Shown: positions 8,889 through 60,790 of the stretch, piece by piece | Layout of the letters: each line of letters begins with the position of its first letter | How positions within the stretch are numbered: position 1 is the first letter of the stretch | Source of the DNA: a virus | Length of the DNA stretch: 64,000 nt | IMG/VR virus record: IMGVR_UViG_3300024272_000071 | Reading direction: 5' to 3' (one strand) | The notes under the pieces: model-generated | Told to the model about the DNA's origin: nothing | What the model saw: only the letters and a program-made list of their open reading frames with translations | The model's database searches: none | Translations under genes and position numbers: made by a program

Positions 8889-9692
8889 ATGAAATATTGT
8901 ACTTCATATTTCCAGAGTGAACCTGTTCGTCAAAAGATTGATGAATTACGCTTTTCTACCGCTGCCATGAATGACGCACTCGGCTATGCCGAGCGTCATT
9001 CAGACAAGCGGGTTATTATTGAATTTCTAGATTTACACGCAGATCATATTCCTACGATTGAAAAACTGCATAAGCTGCATCAAGAACAACCCAATATCTA
9101 CTATGATTTCTATAATTTACATGATCTTGTAGAATATTCTCGCGCATTTGAACGTCAAGTAGATTATATTATGTACCATCAGCCCGCATTAACTTGGGGA
9201 CTTGTGCAAATCTTACTTTATTACAAAGTTTGTGATATTGTTATTAGTGAACCTCTTACCTTTAACATGAATGAACTTGAAAAGAATGTGCATCCTTATG
9301 CTCGTATTCGTATTCGTCCTTACATTGCAAAACCAGAAATTGCAAGAGGGATTGAAACAGATTCTGGTATCCACCATTTCTGGGTACTACCCCAGCATAT
9401 GCACTTTTATGAACCATATGTTGATGTAATTGATTTGCTTGATGATAATATTGTGCGCGAAACAGCTTTGGTAAGTACTTATACATCTAATAAAGAGTTC
9501 TCTGCGCGACTGGATACTCTTATTGAAGGTGTAGAGTGCGGTATTGGTGCATCTTTTATCGACGATAAATTTGTACAGCGTCGTCTCACTTGCGGACAAA
9601 GCTGTTTAAAAAACAGCAATTATTGCCATTACTGTGATCAATATGTAAAAATGTATGATGTAATTGCCGCACAACGTAAATCTTCTAATTGA
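8889..9692 (+). CDS. hypothetical protein (267 aa)
   Basis: RBS AAGGAGG; C-terminal Cys/His cluster CGQSCLKNSNYCHYCDQY. Confidence 0.5.
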   Translation: MKYCTSYFQSEPVRQKIDELRFSTAAMNDALGYAERHSDKRVIIEFLDLHADHIPTIEKLHKLHQEQPNIYYDFYNLHDLVEYSRAFERQVDYIMYHQPALTWGLVQILLYYKVCDIVISEPLTFNMNELEKNVHPYARIRIRPYIAKPEIARGIETDSGIHHFWVLPQHMHFYEPYVDVIDLLDDNIVRETALVSTYTSNKEFSARLDTLIEGVECGIGASFIDDKFVQRRLTCGQSCLKNSNYCHYCDQYVKMYDVIAAQRKSSN

Positions 9693-9745
9693 TTTTTTTC
9701 AAAAAATATTATATAATATATATGTAAGATTGAGAGAGGGAATAA
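9690..9745 (+). promoter_or_regulatory. conserved phage promoter-leader cassette (copy)
   Basis: TGATTTTTTTCAAAAAATATTATATAATATATATGTAAGATTGAGAGAGGG. Confidence 0.6.
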
Positions 9746-9773
9746 AACCTCACTCGGAAAGGAGAAGTCGAAG

Positions 9774-10010
9774 ATGTTCCGAACATTTTGTGAAGCTATG
9801 GAACAAGAGCCAGCACTGACTCTCACCATGCTTGAAGAATTTGGTCATACTACTACTCGCACTGGTAAACTGAATCGTGCGGCAGCTCGTATCCGCCAAG
9901 ACCTTGAAATGTACGGAGATTTCAGTCTTGAAGATGCTCTCGTAGCTTGCGATCTCGATCAGCTTACGGAAGCTGAAATCAAGTATCTGGAAGGACGATT
10001 GAACTCATGA
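9774..10010 (+). CDS. hypothetical protein (78 aa)
   Basis: RBS GGAAAGGAG; stop overlaps the next start (TCATGA). Confidence 0.5.
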   Translation: MFRTFCEAMEQEPALTLTMLEEFGHTTTRTGKLNRAAARIRQDLEMYGDFSLEDALVACDLDQLTEAEIKYLEGRLNS

Positions 10011-58683: not shown

Positions 58684-59056
58684 TGCTTTTGTTCATGCAC
58701 TACAAACATATGGAGAAAATTTGTTTGAATTGATTCCTGTGCATGGAAAATTGTTTGTTGATGAAAATACTCTATGCGGACATAGAGAAATTGTTCGTGC
58801 TCATTTAGATGATACATGGATCAAACCTATTATTCACCACTGGTTTGAAATTGAATCTCCACCACCTTTCGGCTATACCGATGAAATTTCAATGATTGCA
58901 AAATTATCTGAAATTTATCCAGATAATGTTATTGTTGTAGTCGATAAATTGCGGGAATATTCTCGTTTAAATCGTGAATATGCCAACGATGAACTATATA
59001 ATACAGAAGATCTTTGGAATTTAATTGAGGAGGCAAAAAAGAATAATGCTCACTGA
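58646..59056 (+). CDS. hypothetical protein (136 aa)
   Basis: Overlaps both neighbours by a few codons. Confidence 0.4.
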   Translation: MPMQKPRIAFTANAFVHALQTYGENLFELIPVHGKLFVDENTLCGHREIVRAHLDDTWIKPIIHHWFEIESPPPFGYTDEISMIAKLSEIYPDNVIVVVDKLREYSRLNREYANDELYNTEDLWNLIEEAKKNNAH

Positions 59057-60686
59057 TATTGAAATCGCACAGAAATCAGAAATGTTACCTATTTCTGACA
59101 TTATGTATCAACTGAATAAGTATAATTATGAGCCATATGGAAAATATAAGGCTAAATTGAAATATGATGATTTTGGCGACAAGAAAGGTAAGTTAATTCT
59201 TGTTACTGCAATGAACCCTACCCCTATGGGTGAAGGTAAAACTACTATGAGCATTGGTCTTGCCGATGGTTTACGTCAAATTGGCGAAGATTCTATTCTT
59301 GCTCTACGTGAGCCTTCTCTTGGCCCTGTGTTTGGTTTAAAAGGCGGTGCCGCCGGTGGTGGATACGCACAGGTCGTTCCCATGGAGGATATTAATCTAC
59401 ACTTCACTGGTGACTTACATGCCATTGAAAATGCGAATAATCTACTCGCCGCAATGATTGATAATCATATTTATCAAGGTAATGCTCTCAATATTCAAAA
59501 AGTAACTTGGCGTCGCTGCATGGATATGAATGATCGTCAGTTACGCAATATTACTTCTGGTCTTGGCGCAAAAACGGATGGTGTACCAAGAGATGATGGA
59601 TTTGATATCACTGTAGCTTCTGAAGTTATGGCCATCTTCTGTTTAGCTAACAATTTGGAAGAGTTAAAGCTCAGTCTGGGTGAAATTATTATTGGCTATA
59701 ATGGCGATGGAATGCCTGTATATGCCAAAGAACTCAAGGCTGAAGGTGCTATGACAGCTTTGCTCAAGGATGCTTTTAATCCTAATATTGTACAGACTCT
59801 TGAGCATACTCCCGCGATTATCCATGGTGGACCTTTTGCTAATATTGCGCACGGTTGTAATAGTATCGTAGCCACTAAATTAGCTATGAGTCTTGCAGAT
59901 TATGTTGTAACTGAAGCTGGTTTTGGCGCAGATCTTGGTGCAGAAAAATTCCTTGATATTAAGTGCCCTCGTGCTGGAATCACACCTAATGCTATTGTAA
60001 TTGTAGCCACTACCAAGGCTATTAAGTATAATGGCGGCATCCATAAGGATCATGTAAAAGAACCTAATATGGAAGCAATGCAAAAGGGAATTGTGAATCT
60101 TCAACATCATGTAAAGACAATGCAAAGCTATGGCGTTCCTGTTATTGTCGCAATTAATAAATATGATACTGATCTTGAAGAAGAATTGAATTATATTATT
60201 AAAAATTGCGGTGCAGATTGTGCTATTTGTACTGCCCACGCAGAAGGTGGAAAGGGCGCGACGAACCTTGCTCATATGGTGCTTAATGCCTTGAAAGAGA
60301 ATGTCACTCTTAATCATCCTTATGATGTAACTTTTGATAATGGAAATATTTTCAAAAAGATGGAAGATTTGGCATATAAGTTCTATGGTGCTGGTAGTAT
60401 TGTTTGGTCTTCAAAAGCAGCACTTGCAATGCGAGATTTTGAGCGACTTGGTTGCGGACATTACCCTATTTGTGTAGCTAAAACCCAGTATAGTATCAGT
60501 GATAATGCCCAACTCTTGGGTGAACCAAAAGATTTTCCAATTGAAATTCGAGATTTAATTTTGTGTCATGGAGCAGGTTTTATTGTTGCCGTCTGCGGCA
60601 AGATTATGCGCATGCCCGGTCTCCCGAAGATTCCGGCGGCAGAAAATATTGATGTTGTAAATGGTAAAATTGTTGGACTATTCTAA
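59046..60686 (+). CDS. fhs: formate--tetrahydrofolate ligase
   Basis: LVTAMNPTPMGEGKTT, GGAAGGGYAQVVPMEDINLHFTGD, HGGPFANIAHGCNS signatures; start taken at 59046 (MLTDIEIAQ). Confidence 0.85.
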   Translation: MLTDIEIAQKSEMLPISDIMYQLNKYNYEPYGKYKAKLKYDDFGDKKGKLILVTAMNPTPMGEGKTTMSIGLADGLRQIGEDSILALREPSLGPVFGLKGGAAGGGYAQVVPMEDINLHFTGDLHAIENANNLLAAMIDNHIYQGNALNIQKVTWRRCMDMNDRQLRNITSGLGAKTDGVPRDDGFDITVASEVMAIFCLANNLEELKLSLGEIIIGYNGDGMPVYAKELKAEGAMTALLKDAFNPNIVQTLEHTPAIIHGGPFANIAHGCNSIVATKLAMSLADYVVTEAGFGADLGAEKFLDIKCPRAGITPNAIVIVATTKAIKYNGGIHKDHVKEPNMEAMQKGIVNLQHHVKTMQSYGVPVIVAINKYDTDLEEELNYIIKNCGADCAICTAHAEGGKGATNLAHMVLNALKENVTLNHPYDVTFDNGNIFKKMEDLAYKFYGAGSIVWSSKAALAMRDFERLGCGHYPICVAKTQYSISDNAQLLGEPKDFPIEIRDLILCHGAGFIVAVCGKIMRMPGLPKIPAAENIDVVNGKIVGLF

Positions 60687-60689
60687 TAT

Positions 60690-60790
60690 ACAGCCCGAGG
60701 TAACTCGGGCTTCTTTTATCCCAGATTTCCTCTGAATTTGCTTGATTTTTTCTAAAAAATATGATATAATATATATGTAAGATAAAAAGG
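60690..60790 (+). promoter_or_regulatory. terminator hairpin plus a conserved promoter cassette
   Basis: AGCCCGAGGTAACTCGGGCT + TTCTTTT, then TTGATTTTTTCTAAAAAATATGATATAATATATATGTAAGATAAAAAGGAGGG. Confidence 0.6.

What the first reader, a model, noticed from the sequence alone, without database searches (positions are those of the whole stretch)
9690..60790. About 28 copies of a ~55 bp conserved promoter-leader cassette, often fused to the preceding gene's terminator hairpin
Consensus CATTTGAAAAnTTCAAAAAATTTGATATAATATATATGTAAGGTTGAGAGAGG. It reads as a -35-like TTGAAA, a 17 bp spacer and an extended -10 TGATATAAT, followed by a conserved transcribed leader ending in a GAGAGG ribosome site. 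Nearly every gene outside the early region has its own copy, and the upstream terminator's T-run (TTGATTTTTT) doubles as the promoter's upstream region. The last copy lies inside the 3' part of the RNase H ORF at the window end. Conservation of the leader beyond what sigma70 needs suggests a phage factor recognising DNA or RNA here.
Basis: seen in the sequence. Interest (0 to 1): 0.6.

Follow-up and report, generated by a model that had tools for sequence, protein, structure and literature searches.

The report
Repeated strong promoter-leader cassette in huge phage
A huge uncultivated gut or rumen phage places one near-identical 55-base "start transcription here, then translate" signal in front of about two dozen genes and tRNA clusters; it is a real and widely conserved signal, but of a kind already known from phages T5 and T4.

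Summary
The repeat is real. The window holds 26 hits within 3 mismatches of the 22-base core, against 0 expected by chance. All but one lie on the gene strand.

Each copy has a -35 TTGA(T/A)n, an exact 17-bp A/T-tract spacer and an extended -10 TGnTATAAT. This is followed by ATATAT-GTAAGG(T). Copies before protein genes also carry a Shine-Dalgarno block, TTGAGAGAGG.

Five copies abut a strong terminator hairpin whose T-run carries the -35. Two more have a terminator just upstream.

The same cassette occurs in dozens of rumen and gut viral contigs. Their proteins are only 25-70% identical to the window's, so selection maintains it, not recent copying.

It is 64-80% identical over 56 nt, in the same register, to T5 PN25-type promoters. 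Its layout matches the T4-type PeSL terminator-promoter cassettes.

The best reading is a housekeeping-sigma promoter plus leader for non-structural genes and tRNAs. No extra phage factor is needed to explain it. However, relatives encode a divergent SigA-like sigma behind the same cassette. A second promoter class lies at 116-3456.

Two details of the finding are wrong. The last copy is intergenic, between a formate-THF ligase gene and gyrB, not inside an RNase H ORF. Only about 40% of genes have their own copy.

The parts
3673..3725 (+). Cassette copy, T-type -35 (TTGATT). Leader GTAAAG.
6223..6275 (-). The only minus-strand cassette copy (TTGACT -35). It faces a minus-strand module that includes a wHTH gene at 5174-5719.
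9689..9741 (+). Cassette copy, T-type. It has TT instead of TG at the extended -10. It is followed by a second SD and an ATG at about 9774.
12006..12038 (+). Terminator-like hairpin (dG -23.4) whose 3' T-run is the -35 and spacer of the next cassette.
12038..12090 (+). Cassette copy, T-type, exact core. SD, then ATG at 12103.
14323..14375 (+). Cassette copy, A-type (TTGAAA). Drives the 563-aa gene at 14378-16069.
16066..16118 (+). Cassette copy, A-type, exact core. It is followed by a leader hairpin and then by an inserted minus-strand module.
17347..17377 (+). 14-bp terminator hairpin abutting the -35 of the next cassette.
17379..17431 (+). Diverged cassette copy, T-type (4 mismatches in the core). 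Drives the peptidase-like gene at 17438.
19988..20040 (+). Cassette copy, T-type. Drives gene 20036-20374.
20932..20984 (+). Cassette copy, A-type. Drives long tRNA-like genes starting at 20997.
24644..24670 (+). 11-bp terminator hairpin abutting the -35 of the next cassette.
24672..24724 (+). Cassette copy, T-type, exact core. Gene 24745-25050.
25103..25155 (+). Cassette copy, A-type, exact core. Gene 25160-25444.
25465..25517 (+). Cassette copy, A-type, exact core, with the full TTGAGAGAGGAG leader.
25661..25713 (+). Cassette copy, T-type, without an SD block. tRNA-Glu lies 157 nt downstream.
26319..26371 (+). Cassette copy, A-type, with a noncoding leader carrying CAGCAA.
28675..28727 (+). 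Cassette copy, T-type. Its noncoding leader (ACAGCAA) precedes an intron-containing tRNA.
32655..32707 (+). Cassette copy, T-type, exact core. Its predicted start lies 33 nt before the suppressor tRNA(CUA) at 32723-32813.
33256..33308 (+). Cassette copy, A-type, placed directly after tRNA-Phe. Gene 33317-33631.
35640..35692 (+). Cassette copy, A-type. Leader ACAAGGTTGAGAGAGGAG.
37875..37927 (+). Variant promoter: TTGACT, then a cassette-like spacer, then TGCTATAAT, with a different downstream block (AATTATAGG).
39137..39189 (+). Cassette copy (TTGACT -35) with a noncoding leader.
41133..41158 (+). Terminator hairpin followed by its own T-run, 16 nt upstream of the next cassette.
41175..41227 (+). 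Cassette copy, T-type. Gene 41238-41561.
41570..41622 (+). Cassette copy, A-type. Gene 41624-41887, followed by the DUF2828/DUF7788 gene.
43833..43885 (+). Cassette copy, A-type. It has a 158-nt leader before the MVP-like gene at 44031.
46512..46539 (+). Terminator hairpin (dG -21.1) abutting the -35 of the next cassette.
46539..46591 (+). Cassette copy, T-type. RNA-repair gene block downstream.
48593..48645 (+). Cassette copy, T-type, exact core. A small ORF, then the HNH gene.
52996..53028 (+). Terminator hairpin (dG -21.6) abutting the -35 of the next cassette.
53030..53082 (+). Cassette copy, T-type, exact core.
54197..54249 (+). Cassette copy, T-type. Leader TTAAGAAAGGAAGG.
60692..60719 (+). 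Hairpin plus T-run: the terminator of the formate-THF ligase gene, 23 nt upstream of the last cassette.
60742..60794 (+). Last full cassette copy. It is intergenic and drives gyrB (ATG at 60800).
63945..63997 (+). Degenerate cassette-like promoter (TTGACA ... TGATAGAAT ATATATTGAAGT) at the window end.

Best explanation
What it is. Each copy is a compact expression cassette for a bacterial core RNA polymerase carrying a housekeeping-type (sigma-70 / SigA) sigma factor.

Promoter half, about -38 to +7, conserved in every copy:
- a sub-consensus -35, TTGA(T/A)(T/A);
- an exactly 17-bp spacer made of a T- or A-run followed by cAAAAAAttt;
- an extended -10, TGaTATAAT;
- an all-A/T discriminator, ATATAT;
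- a purine start, most likely the G of GTAAGG, 7 nt after the -10;
- a fixed first few transcribed bases.

Leader half, about +7 to +18. This purine-rich Shine-Dalgarno block (TTGAGAGAGG or TAAAGAAAGG) pairs with the 3' tail of 16S rRNA. It sits 5-10 nt before the ATG in copies that serve protein genes. In copies that serve tRNAs it is lost or replaced.

TTGATTTTTT variant. Here the T-run can double as the U-tract of an intrinsic terminator for the upstream gene, so one roughly 90-bp unit ends one transcript and starts the next.

Biological role. The cassette gives individually strong, insulated expression to non-structural (early or middle, auxiliary) genes and tRNA clusters of a huge phage. 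Its host is probably a gut or rumen Firmicute.

Why it is so conserved. Conservation beyond the two hexamers reflects selection on open-complex formation and promoter escape, as in T5 PN25, and on translation initiation. Repeated copies may also serve as recombination points, as PeSLs do.

Shown versus inferred.
- Shown: the anatomy, spacing, orientation, conservation across the phage group, the resemblance to T5, and the dependence of the SD block on the downstream gene type.
- Inferred: the start site, which holoenzyme reads the cassette, promoter strength, and timing.
For: - Non-random, gene-oriented repeat with invariant 17-bp spacing and TGnTATAAT.
- In relatives fetched by the motif, and in relatives fetched independently through a sigma gene, a scan anchored only on TGNTATAAT recovers TTGA at the right distance and the same downstream block.
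- In some relatives the -35 is the full consensus TTGACA at the same spacing.
- Relatives share proteins with the window at only 25-70% identity. Yet cassette identity between genomes (0.68 over 56 nt) is nearly as high as within genomes (0.74). This indicates purifying selection rather than recent duplication.
- The cassette is 64-80% identical over 56 nt, with the same 12-nt distance from TATAAT to TTGAGAGAGGAG, to T5 PN25-type promoters. One of these (SA001) also has the hairpin and T-run upstream. Similar promoter-leaders occur in Lactococcus 936-type phage JG8 and Bacillus phage G.
- PN25 is transcribed by host holoenzyme in vitro. Its +1..+20 region changes productive output up to 25-fold.
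- Pairing of +1..+22 with the anti-SD is -10 to -15 kcal/mol before most protein genes, and -4 to -6 (background -4.5 +/- 2.7) before most tRNA or noncoding targets.
- Strong hairpins occur only with the T-run variant.
- 96 distinct ORFs directly downstream of cassettes in relatives match PHROGs for peptidase, topoisomerase II, exonuclease, ATPase, RNA-binding protein and sigma factor. No head or tail family is among the 25 families listed.
- In at least 4 relatives a SigA-like sigma gene itself sits behind a cassette-like site (2-4 mismatches to the core). Unless readthrough from an upstream promoter supplies it, host holoenzyme must fire the cassette at least once.
Against: - No transcription start site, RNA or biochemical data exist for this phage. 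The host is unknown.
- The same window holds a second stereotyped promoter class (116-3456: UP-like A-tract, TTGACAAAC, G/C-containing spacer, and a different discriminator and start region). If both were simply 'the strongest host promoter', one optimum would be expected. Something may therefore distinguish the classes.
- The block from -6 to +7 (ATATAT-GTAAGGT) is conserved whatever the downstream gene type. It is not shared with T5, which has AGATTC-ATAAATT.
- Cassette-bearing relatives encode a divergent SigA-like sigma.
- Copies within a genome carry a small but significant genome-specific flavour.
Confidence: 0.65

Rival explanations
1. Private promoter class. The cassette (weak -35, A/T spacer, ATATAT-GTAAGGT block) is read preferentially by a phage-encoded SigA-like sigma, or needs another phage factor that contacts the -6..+7 region. 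The TTGACA-type promoters at 116-3456 are read by host SigA first. The phage thereby moves core polymerase onto its own genes.
For: - There are two differently built promoter classes in one window.
- SigA-like sigma genes occur in cassette-bearing relatives. Of 80 viral loci fetched by sigma homology alone, about 27 carry 1-7 cassettes each (large contigs of 118-192 kb among them). The rest carry none.
- The phage sigmas form a divergent group: ATYWI(R/K)Q instead of ATWWIRQ, a variable region 3.0, and KLRNP. The cassette-free loci carry canonical SigA motifs.
- Cassettes have a genome-specific flavour.
- There is a precedent: a huge phage that encodes its own sigma-70 while targeting the host's gene (PMC7162821).
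Against: - The sigma gene is itself behind cassette-like sites in at least 4 lineages.
- In the closest example, the DNA-recognition helices of regions 2.4, 3.0 and 4.2 are nearly identical to B. subtilis SigA. Its specificity is therefore expected to overlap the host's.
- One sigma lacks the region-3.0 His, yet its cassettes keep the TG.
- No sigma gene is found in this window.
- T5 look-alike promoters need no phage factor.
Confidence: 0.18
2. Recombination cassette. The copies are kept alike mainly because they act as portable homology for modular gene exchange (PeSL-like mini-circle excision and integration, or gene conversion). Promoter function is secondary.
For: - The layout is the same as PeSLs: stem-loop, sigma-70 promoter, SD, ATG.
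- Conserved gene order in relatives (g10007, g14378, g17438, g18435, g20036, g25160) is interrupted by different inserts that are bounded by cassettes.
- Homology breakpoints between 80-99% identical loci fall within 30 nt of a cassette in 23 of 86 cases, against 4.7 +/- 2.2 for random positions.
- Identity within genomes exceeds identity between genomes.
Against: - Between-genome identity is almost as high as within-genome identity, although the proteins are very diverged. Gene conversion inside a genome cannot explain that.
- The breakpoint enrichment is confounded, because cassettes sit at gene boundaries and are themselves conserved.
- Function-specific modulation of the SD block shows selection on expression.
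- No close genome pair was available to test the idea around the window.
Confidence: 0.1
3. RNA-level signal. The conserved first bases of the transcript (GUAAGG...) are recognised as RNA by a phage nuclease, an RNA-binding regulator or a 5'-end modifying enzyme, or they act as a 5' stabiliser.
For: - GTAAGG is conserved before both protein and tRNA targets.
- The window is rich in RNA-repair and RNA-binding genes: RNA ligase, RlaP-like, phosphoesterases, and a phrog_850 'RNA-binding protein' homologue.
- SD-like 5' stabilisers are established in Firmicutes (PMC3997798).
- A CAGCAA leader motif is enriched at +15..+35.
Against: - A 5'-terminal hairpin pairing GTAAG with CTTAC is not enriched: 14 of 263, against 7-15 in controls.
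- Anti-SD pairing is at background in most noncoding copies, so a general STAB-SD role is not supported.
- Leaders are no more and no less structured than composition predicts.
- No Rfam family matches.
- The conserved block runs on without a break into the untranscribed discriminator, which points to DNA-level recognition.
Confidence: 0.05
4. Promoter for a phage-encoded, sigma-independent RNA polymerase (T7/N4-like single-subunit or phiKZ-like multisubunit), with the TATG near the start as its core.
For: - High uniformity of a block of more than 20 bp around the start is typical of phage-polymerase promoters.
- From memory, phiKZ late promoters centre on TATG. This is unverified here.
Against: - The architecture is bipartite, with exact 17-bp spacing, TTGNNN and TGnTATAAT. 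In relatives the -35 drifts towards TTGACA.
- No polymerase gene was seen in the window or among cassette-driven ORFs.
- The closest sequence matches are host-polymerase promoters of T5-like phages.
Confidence: 0.02

Closest known systems
T5 PN25-type promoters of T5-like phages (Tequintavirus: T5 N25, FFH1, SA001)
   Same: - Sigma-70-type promoter with a 17-bp spacer ending in an A-run then a T-run (TTCAAAAAATTT is shared with FFH1).
- TATAAT, with the start 7 nt downstream, then TAA at +2..+4 and T at +7.
- TTGAGAGAGGA(G/A) exactly 12 nt after the -10, followed by an ATG.
- SA001 also has the TGn extended -10 and an upstream hairpin plus T-run.
- 36-45 of 56 positions are identical to the window consensus.
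- PN25's transcribed region is known to control promoter escape.
   Different: - The -35 is TTGCTT or TTGCAT, against TTGA(T/A)n here.
- N25 has no correctly placed TG.
- The discriminator and start are AGATTC-A, against ATATAT-G here.
- BLAST detects only 1-3 places per roughly 110-kb T5-like genome, against 26 in 51 kb here.
- The phage lineage is unrelated and the host is a proteobacterium. The likeness could be convergence or an ancient shared design.
PeSL (promoter-early stem-loop) cassettes of T4-like phages (PMC2839356, PMC4122927)
   Same: - A composite unit: stem-loop terminator immediately upstream of a sigma-70-like early promoter, then an SD and a start codon.
- Many copies per genome, placed between small, variable, non-structural genes.
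- Homology breakpoints between relatives are enriched at cassettes.
   Different: - Only 5-7 of 26 copies here carry the stem-loop.
- Here the T-run of the terminator is itself the -35 and spacer.
- The cassette also drives tRNA genes.
- It is conserved across very diverged genomes, whereas PeSL consensus differs between T4 subgroups.
- No mini-circle or exchange event has been shown.
- The phage clade is different.
Promoter-leader of Lactococcus 936-type phages (for example JG8, upstream of the gene block that ends in a RuvC-like resolvase) and intergenic promoters of Bacillus phage G
   Same: - JG8 reads TTTGATATAATATATATATCAAGTTGAGAGAGGAAAGCAAATG. It shares the extended -10, the A/T discriminator, the 12-nt register and the SD block.
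- Phage G reads TGATATAATATAAATATAAGGTTAATAAGGAAGGAATG, with 5 places in its genome.
- Both phages infect Firmicutes.
   Different: - JG8 has no recognisable -35.
- There are one or a few copies per genome.
- The start region differs.
- No protein homology to the window was seen.
5' stabilisers and STAB-SD elements of Firmicute and phage mRNAs (cryIIIA STAB-SD; polypurine stabiliser of Hue, Cohen and Bechhofer 1995, as cited in PMC3997798)
   Same: A purine-rich, SD-like sequence within about 20 nt of the predicted 5' end, able to pair with the 16S 3' tail.
   Different: Here the block is followed by a start codon at normal spacing. It disappears in most noncoding copies, so it behaves as an ordinary, strong ribosome-binding site.

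Membership tests
Housekeeping-sigma (sigma-70 / SigA) promoter | -35 TTGACA-like and -10 TATAAT-like hexamers separated by 17 +/- 1 bp | tested here: met
   All copies have TTGNNN, then 17 bp, then TATAAT, with 10-11 of 12 matches. The same holds in sigma-selected relatives anchored only on TGNTATAAT.
Housekeeping-sigma (sigma-70 / SigA) promoter | Extended -10 TGn, common in Firmicute promoters | tested here: met
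   TG lies at -15/-14 in 25 of 26 + strand copies. The copy at 9689 has TT.
Housekeeping-sigma (sigma-70 / SigA) promoter | Primary transcript 5' ends 6-8 nt downstream of the -10, and transcription by core plus the primary sigma | not testable with these tools
   No RNA or biochemical data are available. The start at the G of GTAAGG is inferred from spacing and from the T5 N25 register.
PeSL (T4-type promoter-early stem-loop cassette) | Stem-loop directly upstream of the promoter | tested here: inconclusive
   Present in 5 copies directly and 2 nearby, out of 26. Absent from all A-type copies.
PeSL (T4-type promoter-early stem-loop cassette) | Sigma-70-like early promoter followed by an SD and the start codon of the downstream gene | tested here: met
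   About 17-19 copies have an SD and an ATG within 20-50 nt. The others drive tRNAs or long leaders.
PeSL (T4-type promoter-early stem-loop cassette) | Association with indels and replacements between related genomes | tested here: inconclusive
   23 of 86 homology breakpoints lie within 30 nt of a cassette, against 4.7 +/- 2.2 at random. The result is confounded by gene boundaries. No close relative of the window was found.
PeSL (T4-type promoter-early stem-loop cassette) | Occurs in T4-like myoviruses | tested here: not met
   The only phage-collection protein matches tested are to uncultured huge phages at 40-45% identity. No DNA similarity to any deposited phage was found beyond tRNAs.
T5 PN25-type promoter | A/T-tract spacer, start 7 nt after TATAAT, and the transcribed region ATAAAT-TTGAGAGAGGAG leading into an ATG | tested here: met
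   Same register and 36-45 of 56 identical positions. BLAST of the cassette against 50,697 phage records returns T5-like intergenic promoters as the top full-length hits. This is likeness of design, not shared ancestry of the phages.
Phage-RNA-polymerase promoter (T7/N4/phiKZ-like) | A single conserved block around the start without a sigma-type bipartite structure, and a phage RNA polymerase gene | tested here: not met
   The structure is bipartite with fixed spacing. No polymerase gene was seen in the window or among the top PHROG families of 96 cassette-driven ORFs. The rest of the genome was not seen.
STAB-SD / 5' mRNA stabiliser | An SD-like sequence near the 5' end that acts without an associated start codon | tested here: not met
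   Anti-SD pairing is strong only where a start codon follows. It is at background in 6 of 8 noncoding copies.

The most novel reading that the evidence does not exclude
The invariant -6..+7 block (ATATAT-GTAAGGT), together with the weak -35 and the A/T spacer, marks a private promoter class. This class would have co-evolved with the group's own divergent SigA-like sigma (ATYWI(R/K)Q type). Host SigA would fire the TTGACA-type promoters, and the first cassettes, immediately after infection. The phage sigma would then take over core polymerase and run about one cassette per 2 kb, including the one that drives the amber-suppressor tRNA. That would link sigma replacement to the timing of stop-codon recoding in a widespread group of gut and rumen huge phages.
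Probability: 0.18. Interest if true: 0.65.

Novelty: new member of a known kind. Interest (0 to 1): 0.4.

Why it matters
- Regulatory map. The cassette gives a ready-made map for an uncultivated group of large gut and rumen phages. One cassette scan marks transcription units, tRNA operons and the suppressor tRNA, and probably separates non-structural from late regions.
- Shared design across distant phages. An almost base-for-base PN25-like promoter-leader design recurs in phages of distant hosts. This argues that the spacer A/T tract, the discriminator, the first transcribed bases and the SD form one jointly optimised unit for bacterial RNA polymerase and ribosome. That is useful for promoter engineering in Firmicutes.
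- Two classes plus a sigma. The two-class promoter layout and the SigA-like sigma in relatives make sigma replacement by huge phages directly testable.

Tried and rejected
- 5'-terminal hairpin. I tested whether GTAAG pairs with a downstream CTTAC as a general feature. It occurs in 14 of 263 sites, against 7-15 in control windows and orientations. Rejected, although about 9 cases cluster at +17..+21.
- General STAB-SD role in noncoding copies. Rejected by the anti-SD pairing energies.
- Selected leader structure or lack of it. The MFE of +1..+45 equals the composition-matched expectation.
- Known RNA family in the leaders. None was found.
- Exact motif in the literature. No relevant paper was found.
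- Source contig and close relatives, wanted to test cassette-bounded indels. The MVP-like protein is not on record. A 38-mer from the window is absent from IMG/VR. The best metagenome relative has only 76% protein identity, on a 3.9-kb contig.
- The two paralogous 500-aa core proteins (14378-16069 and 18435-19913) as candidate transcription proteins. There was no Pfam, PHROG-function or PDB match.
- A palindromic operator (TTGA-N5-TCAA) in the spacer. By inspection it is present in only about half of the copies, so I dropped it.
- A phage-polymerase promoter. Rejected on architecture.
- I did not run the large protein-database searches or structure prediction, because the question did not hinge on them.

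Full report
**1. The observation**

The 22-base core TTGATATAATATATATGTAAGG occurs 26 times with up to 3 mismatches. None is expected in dinucleotide-preserving shuffles. 25 hits are on the + strand.

Looser scans add diverged copies at 17399 and 63965. A scan that constrains only the upstream half (TTGNNN-N14-TGNTATAAT) finds 37 sites, 36 of them on +.

Aligning the copies on the -10 gives a conserved block from about -38 to about +16:

c-A-t-TTGA-(TTTTTT or AAAAnT)-cAAAAAAttt-TGATATAAT-ATATAT-GTAAGG-TTGAGAGAGG

The -35 to -10 spacer is 17 bp in every copy.

The range 9690-60790 holds 25 copies plus a variant at 37875. Further copies lie at 3673 (+) and 6275 (-). The core observation is therefore confirmed.

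Three details are not confirmed:
- Strong hairpins abut the -35 in only five copies (12058, 17399, 24692, 46559, 53050). Two more have a terminator just upstream (41195, 60762). All seven are of the TTGATTTTTT type.
- About 19 of about 52 protein genes in the range have their own copy. The others sit in short operons.
- The last copy is intergenic, between a formate-tetrahydrofolate ligase gene (stop at 60686) and gyrB (ATG at 60800). It is not inside an RNase H ORF.

**2. Context**

The window comes from a very large phage with no close deposited relative.
- It holds 33 ARAGORN tRNAs, or 36 Rfam tRNA matches.
- It encodes a major-vault-protein-like protein, GyrB, FolD, formate-THF ligase, MetK, flotillin, RNA ligase, an RlaP-like protein, several phosphoesterases, and HNH and PD-(D/E)XK nucleases.
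- The only phage-collection protein matches tested are uncultured 462-735 kb phages at 40-45% identity.
- DNA matches to deposited phages are limited to tRNAs.

The cassette-served genes are non-structural.

**3. Two modules inside the cassette**

The first 22 transcribed bases pair strongly with the 16S 3' tail (GAUCACCUCCUUUCU) in copies that precede protein genes, mostly at -10 to -15 kcal/mol. In most copies that precede tRNAs or long noncoding leaders the pairing is at background: -4 to -6, against a genome background of -4.5 +/- 2.7.

The +7..+18 block is therefore a Shine-Dalgarno module that is kept only where it is used. The block from -38 to +7, including ATATAT-GTAAGG(T), is kept everywhere.

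Leaders are weakly structured, as their composition predicts.

**4. Conservation beyond this genome**

The exact 21-mer occurs in 75 stretches of IMG/VR contigs of 6-402 kb. Those whose names overlap the ruminant and gut MAG hits suggest a gut or rumen origin. It also occurs in 30 stretches of GTDB genomes. Nearly all of these are ruminant or gut MAG contigs, mostly labelled Lachnospiraceae, Ruminococcus, Clostridia or Bacilli.

About 45 of these loci share genes with the window, but at only 25-83% protein identity, typically 35-50%. Their coding DNA is 66-75% identical where it aligns at all. The cassette is nevertheless retained.
- Across 40 genome groups, the mean identity over 56 nt is 0.68 between genomes and 0.74 within genomes. 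The difference is about 10 permutation SDs.
- To avoid ascertainment through the motif, I fetched 80 viral loci by homology to a sigma protein (section 6) and anchored only on TGNTATAAT. TTGA at -35, the A/T spacer and the ATATAT(G/A)(T/G)AA(G/A) block all reappear. 53 of 161 sites have at most 3 of 12 mismatches to ATATATGTAAGG.
- In some relatives the -35 half is the consensus TTGACAAA with an upstream A-tract, joined to the same downstream half. The two halves are therefore separable modules.

Conservation on this scale cannot come from recent duplication or gene conversion inside one genome. It indicates function.

**5. What it resembles**

BLAST of a cassette copy against 50,697 deposited phage records returns intergenic promoters of T5-like phages as the top full-length hits, at 78-83% identity over 53-55 nt.

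- FFH1 carries the classical PN25-type sequence, upstream of the gene annotated 'D2 protein':
  TTGCATAGTTCAAAAAATTTCTGTATAAT AGATTC ATAAAT TTGAGAGAGGAG TTTAAATATG
- SA001 carries, upstream of a Ser/Thr phosphatase gene, a hairpin and T-run followed by:
  TTGCTTTCTGCTAAAAATTTTGATATAAT ATTTAT ATAAAT TTGAGAGAGGAA ... ATG

- The published T5 N25 sequence has the same 12 nt between TATAAT and TTGAGAGAGGAG as the window cassette (a one-base-shorter version appears).
- The window consensus matches these promoters at 36-45 of 56 positions.
- Lactococcus 936-type phage JG8 and Bacillus phage G have similar promoter-leaders.

PN25 is used in vitro with host holoenzyme alone. It is limited at promoter escape, and its +1..+20 sequence changes productive output up to 25-fold. 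Purine-rich sequences favour escape, and specific positions such as +5/+6 matter. This gives an established, factor-free reason for conservation downstream of the -10.

The terminator-promoter-SD layout and the placement between small variable genes match the PeSL cassettes of T4-like phages.

A PeSL-like role in modular exchange is suggested but not proven:
- Homology breakpoints between 80-99% identical loci lie within 30 nt of a cassette in 23 of 86 cases, against 4.7 +/- 2.2 at random. However, cassettes sit at gene boundaries, which confounds the test.
- The conserved gene order in relatives is interrupted by different cassette-bounded inserts.

**6. What might be special**

(a) The window has a second stereotyped promoter family, with ten copies at 116-3456. 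It has an upstream GAAAAAAAGTTTC-type A-tract, TTGACAAAC, a G/C-containing spacer, TGnTATAAT and a different start region (...GTCGAAAGGAG). These promoters precede tiny ORFs 60-700 bp apart. Two distinct classes in one genome suggest that something tells them apart, for example timing.

(b) Among 96 distinct ORFs directly behind cassettes in relatives, one is a 341-aa sigma with regions 1.2, 2, 3 and 4. Its best solved relative is B. subtilis SigA (E 1.6e-92), with near-identical recognition helices.

(c) Of the 80 loci fetched by sigma homology, about 27 carry 1-7 cassettes each, and the rest carry none. The cassette-associated sigmas form a divergent group: ATYWI(R/K)Q instead of ATWWIRQ, a variable region 3.0, and KLRNP. 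The cassette-free loci have canonical SigA motifs. At least eight contigs appear both in the motif list and in the sigma list.

(d) The sigma gene is itself preceded by a cassette-like site (2-4 mismatches to the core) in at least four lineages. This implies that host holoenzyme can fire the cassette, unless readthrough supplies the sigma.

No sigma gene lies in this window. A huge phage that encodes its own sigma-70 while targeting the host's gene has been reported (PMC7162821).

**7. Verdict**

The cassette is best read as a housekeeping-sigma promoter fused to a strong ribosome-binding leader, and in a minority of copies to the upstream terminator. It drives non-structural genes and tRNA operons (confidence 0.65).

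It works like T5 PN25-type promoters and is laid out like T4 PeSLs. It is a new member of that kind in a previously undescribed, widespread group of gut and rumen phages.

It also cannot be excluded, given the second promoter class and the group's SigA-like sigma. I put a private-class mechanism at about 0.18.

Start sites, the identity of the holoenzyme, promoter strength and timing are all inferred. Section 1 of the next steps names the experiments.

**8. Limits**

- The host phylum (Firmicutes) is inferred from three things: the closest solved relatives of the phage sigma, the MAG labels and the SD usage.
- The loci were ascertained through the motif. The sigma-selected set is the unbiased control.
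- The PHROG summary lists only the 25 most frequent families.
- The statement that PN25 needs no phage factor rests on its routine use in vitro with purified holoenzyme in the cited papers.

Noticed in passing
window 116-3456: A second, different promoter family with ten copies. The -35 starts are at 116, 854, 1387, 1539, 2142, 2348, 2971, 3285, 3346 and 3428. Each has an upstream GAAAAAAAGTTTC-type A-tract, TTGACAAAC, a G/C-containing 17-bp spacer and TGnTATAAT, followed by A(A/G)nnAnGTCGAAAGGAG. The copies are 60-700 bp apart, before tiny ORFs, in a region of higher G+C (46-49%). It looks like an immediate-early, host-takeover-type array.
   Followed up: partly
window 32723-32813 and all called genes: An amber-suppressor tRNA (anticodon CUA, long variable arm) lies 33 nt after the predicted start of cassette 32655-32707. 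TAG is never used as a stop in 59 called genes (TAA 32, TGA 27) and never occurs in frame, although it occurs 181 times out of frame. This fits a genome whose other (late?) genes read TAG as sense, while this region stays neutral between the two codes.
   Followed up: partly
window 28790-29095 (intron 28816-29020): A type-II tRNA (long variable arm, ending CCA) is split by a roughly 205-nt group I intron. The match to Rfam RF00028 scores 47.4 bits, against a gathering score of 50, with E 4.5e-11 in the local search. ARAGORN and the gathering-threshold Rfam scan both missed this tRNA. The sequence is conserved at 72-84% in several relatives.
   Followed up: partly
window 20997-21122, 21129-21246, 21541-21655: Three unusually long tRNA matches (115-126 nt), found by Rfam but not by ARAGORN, lie directly behind cassette 20932-20984. 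They may carry short introns or be other tRNA-like RNAs.
   Followed up: no
window +15..+35 of cassettes 26319, 28675 and 43833; many relatives (for example L012, L017, L158, L170, L171): A leader motif, (A)CAGCAA(A), is enriched at +15..+35 of cassette transcripts: 34 of 366 sites, against 4-7 in control windows. It is associated with tRNA genes downstream: a tRNA lies within 150 nt in 14 of 34 sites with the motif, against 27 of 332 without. Its function is unknown. A processing signal is one possibility.
   Followed up: partly
window 41939-46502 and 46795-51575: A vault/Ro-like and RNA-repair neighbourhood. It contains a DUF2828/DUF7788 protein (its relatives match phrog_850, 'RNA-binding protein'), a major-vault-protein shoulder and repeat protein of 823 aa with a 158-nt leader, an RlaP-like nucleotidyltransferase, phosphoesterases, a YqeY-like protein and an RNA ligase. 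MVP-like homologues also occur in 462-735 kb uncultured phages at 40-45% identity.
   Followed up: no
window 6352-7185, 16678-17271 (-), 39781-40863, 59025-60686: A set of one-carbon and methyl-cycle auxiliary genes: FolD, a formate/nitrite transporter, SAM synthetase and formate-tetrahydrofolate ligase. A citrate-transporter-like gene lies at 23039-24385.
   Followed up: no
window 16127-17337 (-): A minus-strand insert sits between two + strand cassettes. It contains a 184-aa ORF and the formate/nitrite transporter gene. It has its own TTGACA-17-TAAAAT promoter (17337-17309) and a 14-bp terminator (16695-16663). This is a moron-like module, and the kind of cassette-bounded variable insert also seen at this position in relatives.
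   Followed up: partly
L029:9908-10930 (same as L072, L114, L115); also L008, L040, L116-L120, L128-L131, L158-L193: Cassette-bearing relatives encode a divergent SigA-like sigma factor (38-55% identical among lineages). It has ATYWI(R/K)Q in place of the canonical ATWWIRQ. None is present in the 64-kb window.
   Followed up: yes
window 14378-16069 and 18435-19913: Two paralogous genes of about 500-560 aa have no Pfam or PDB match. 18435-19913 matches only PHROGs of unknown function. They are among the most widely shared genes of this phage group: syntenic with the peptidase-like gene 17438-18514 in more than 15 relatives.
   Followed up: partly
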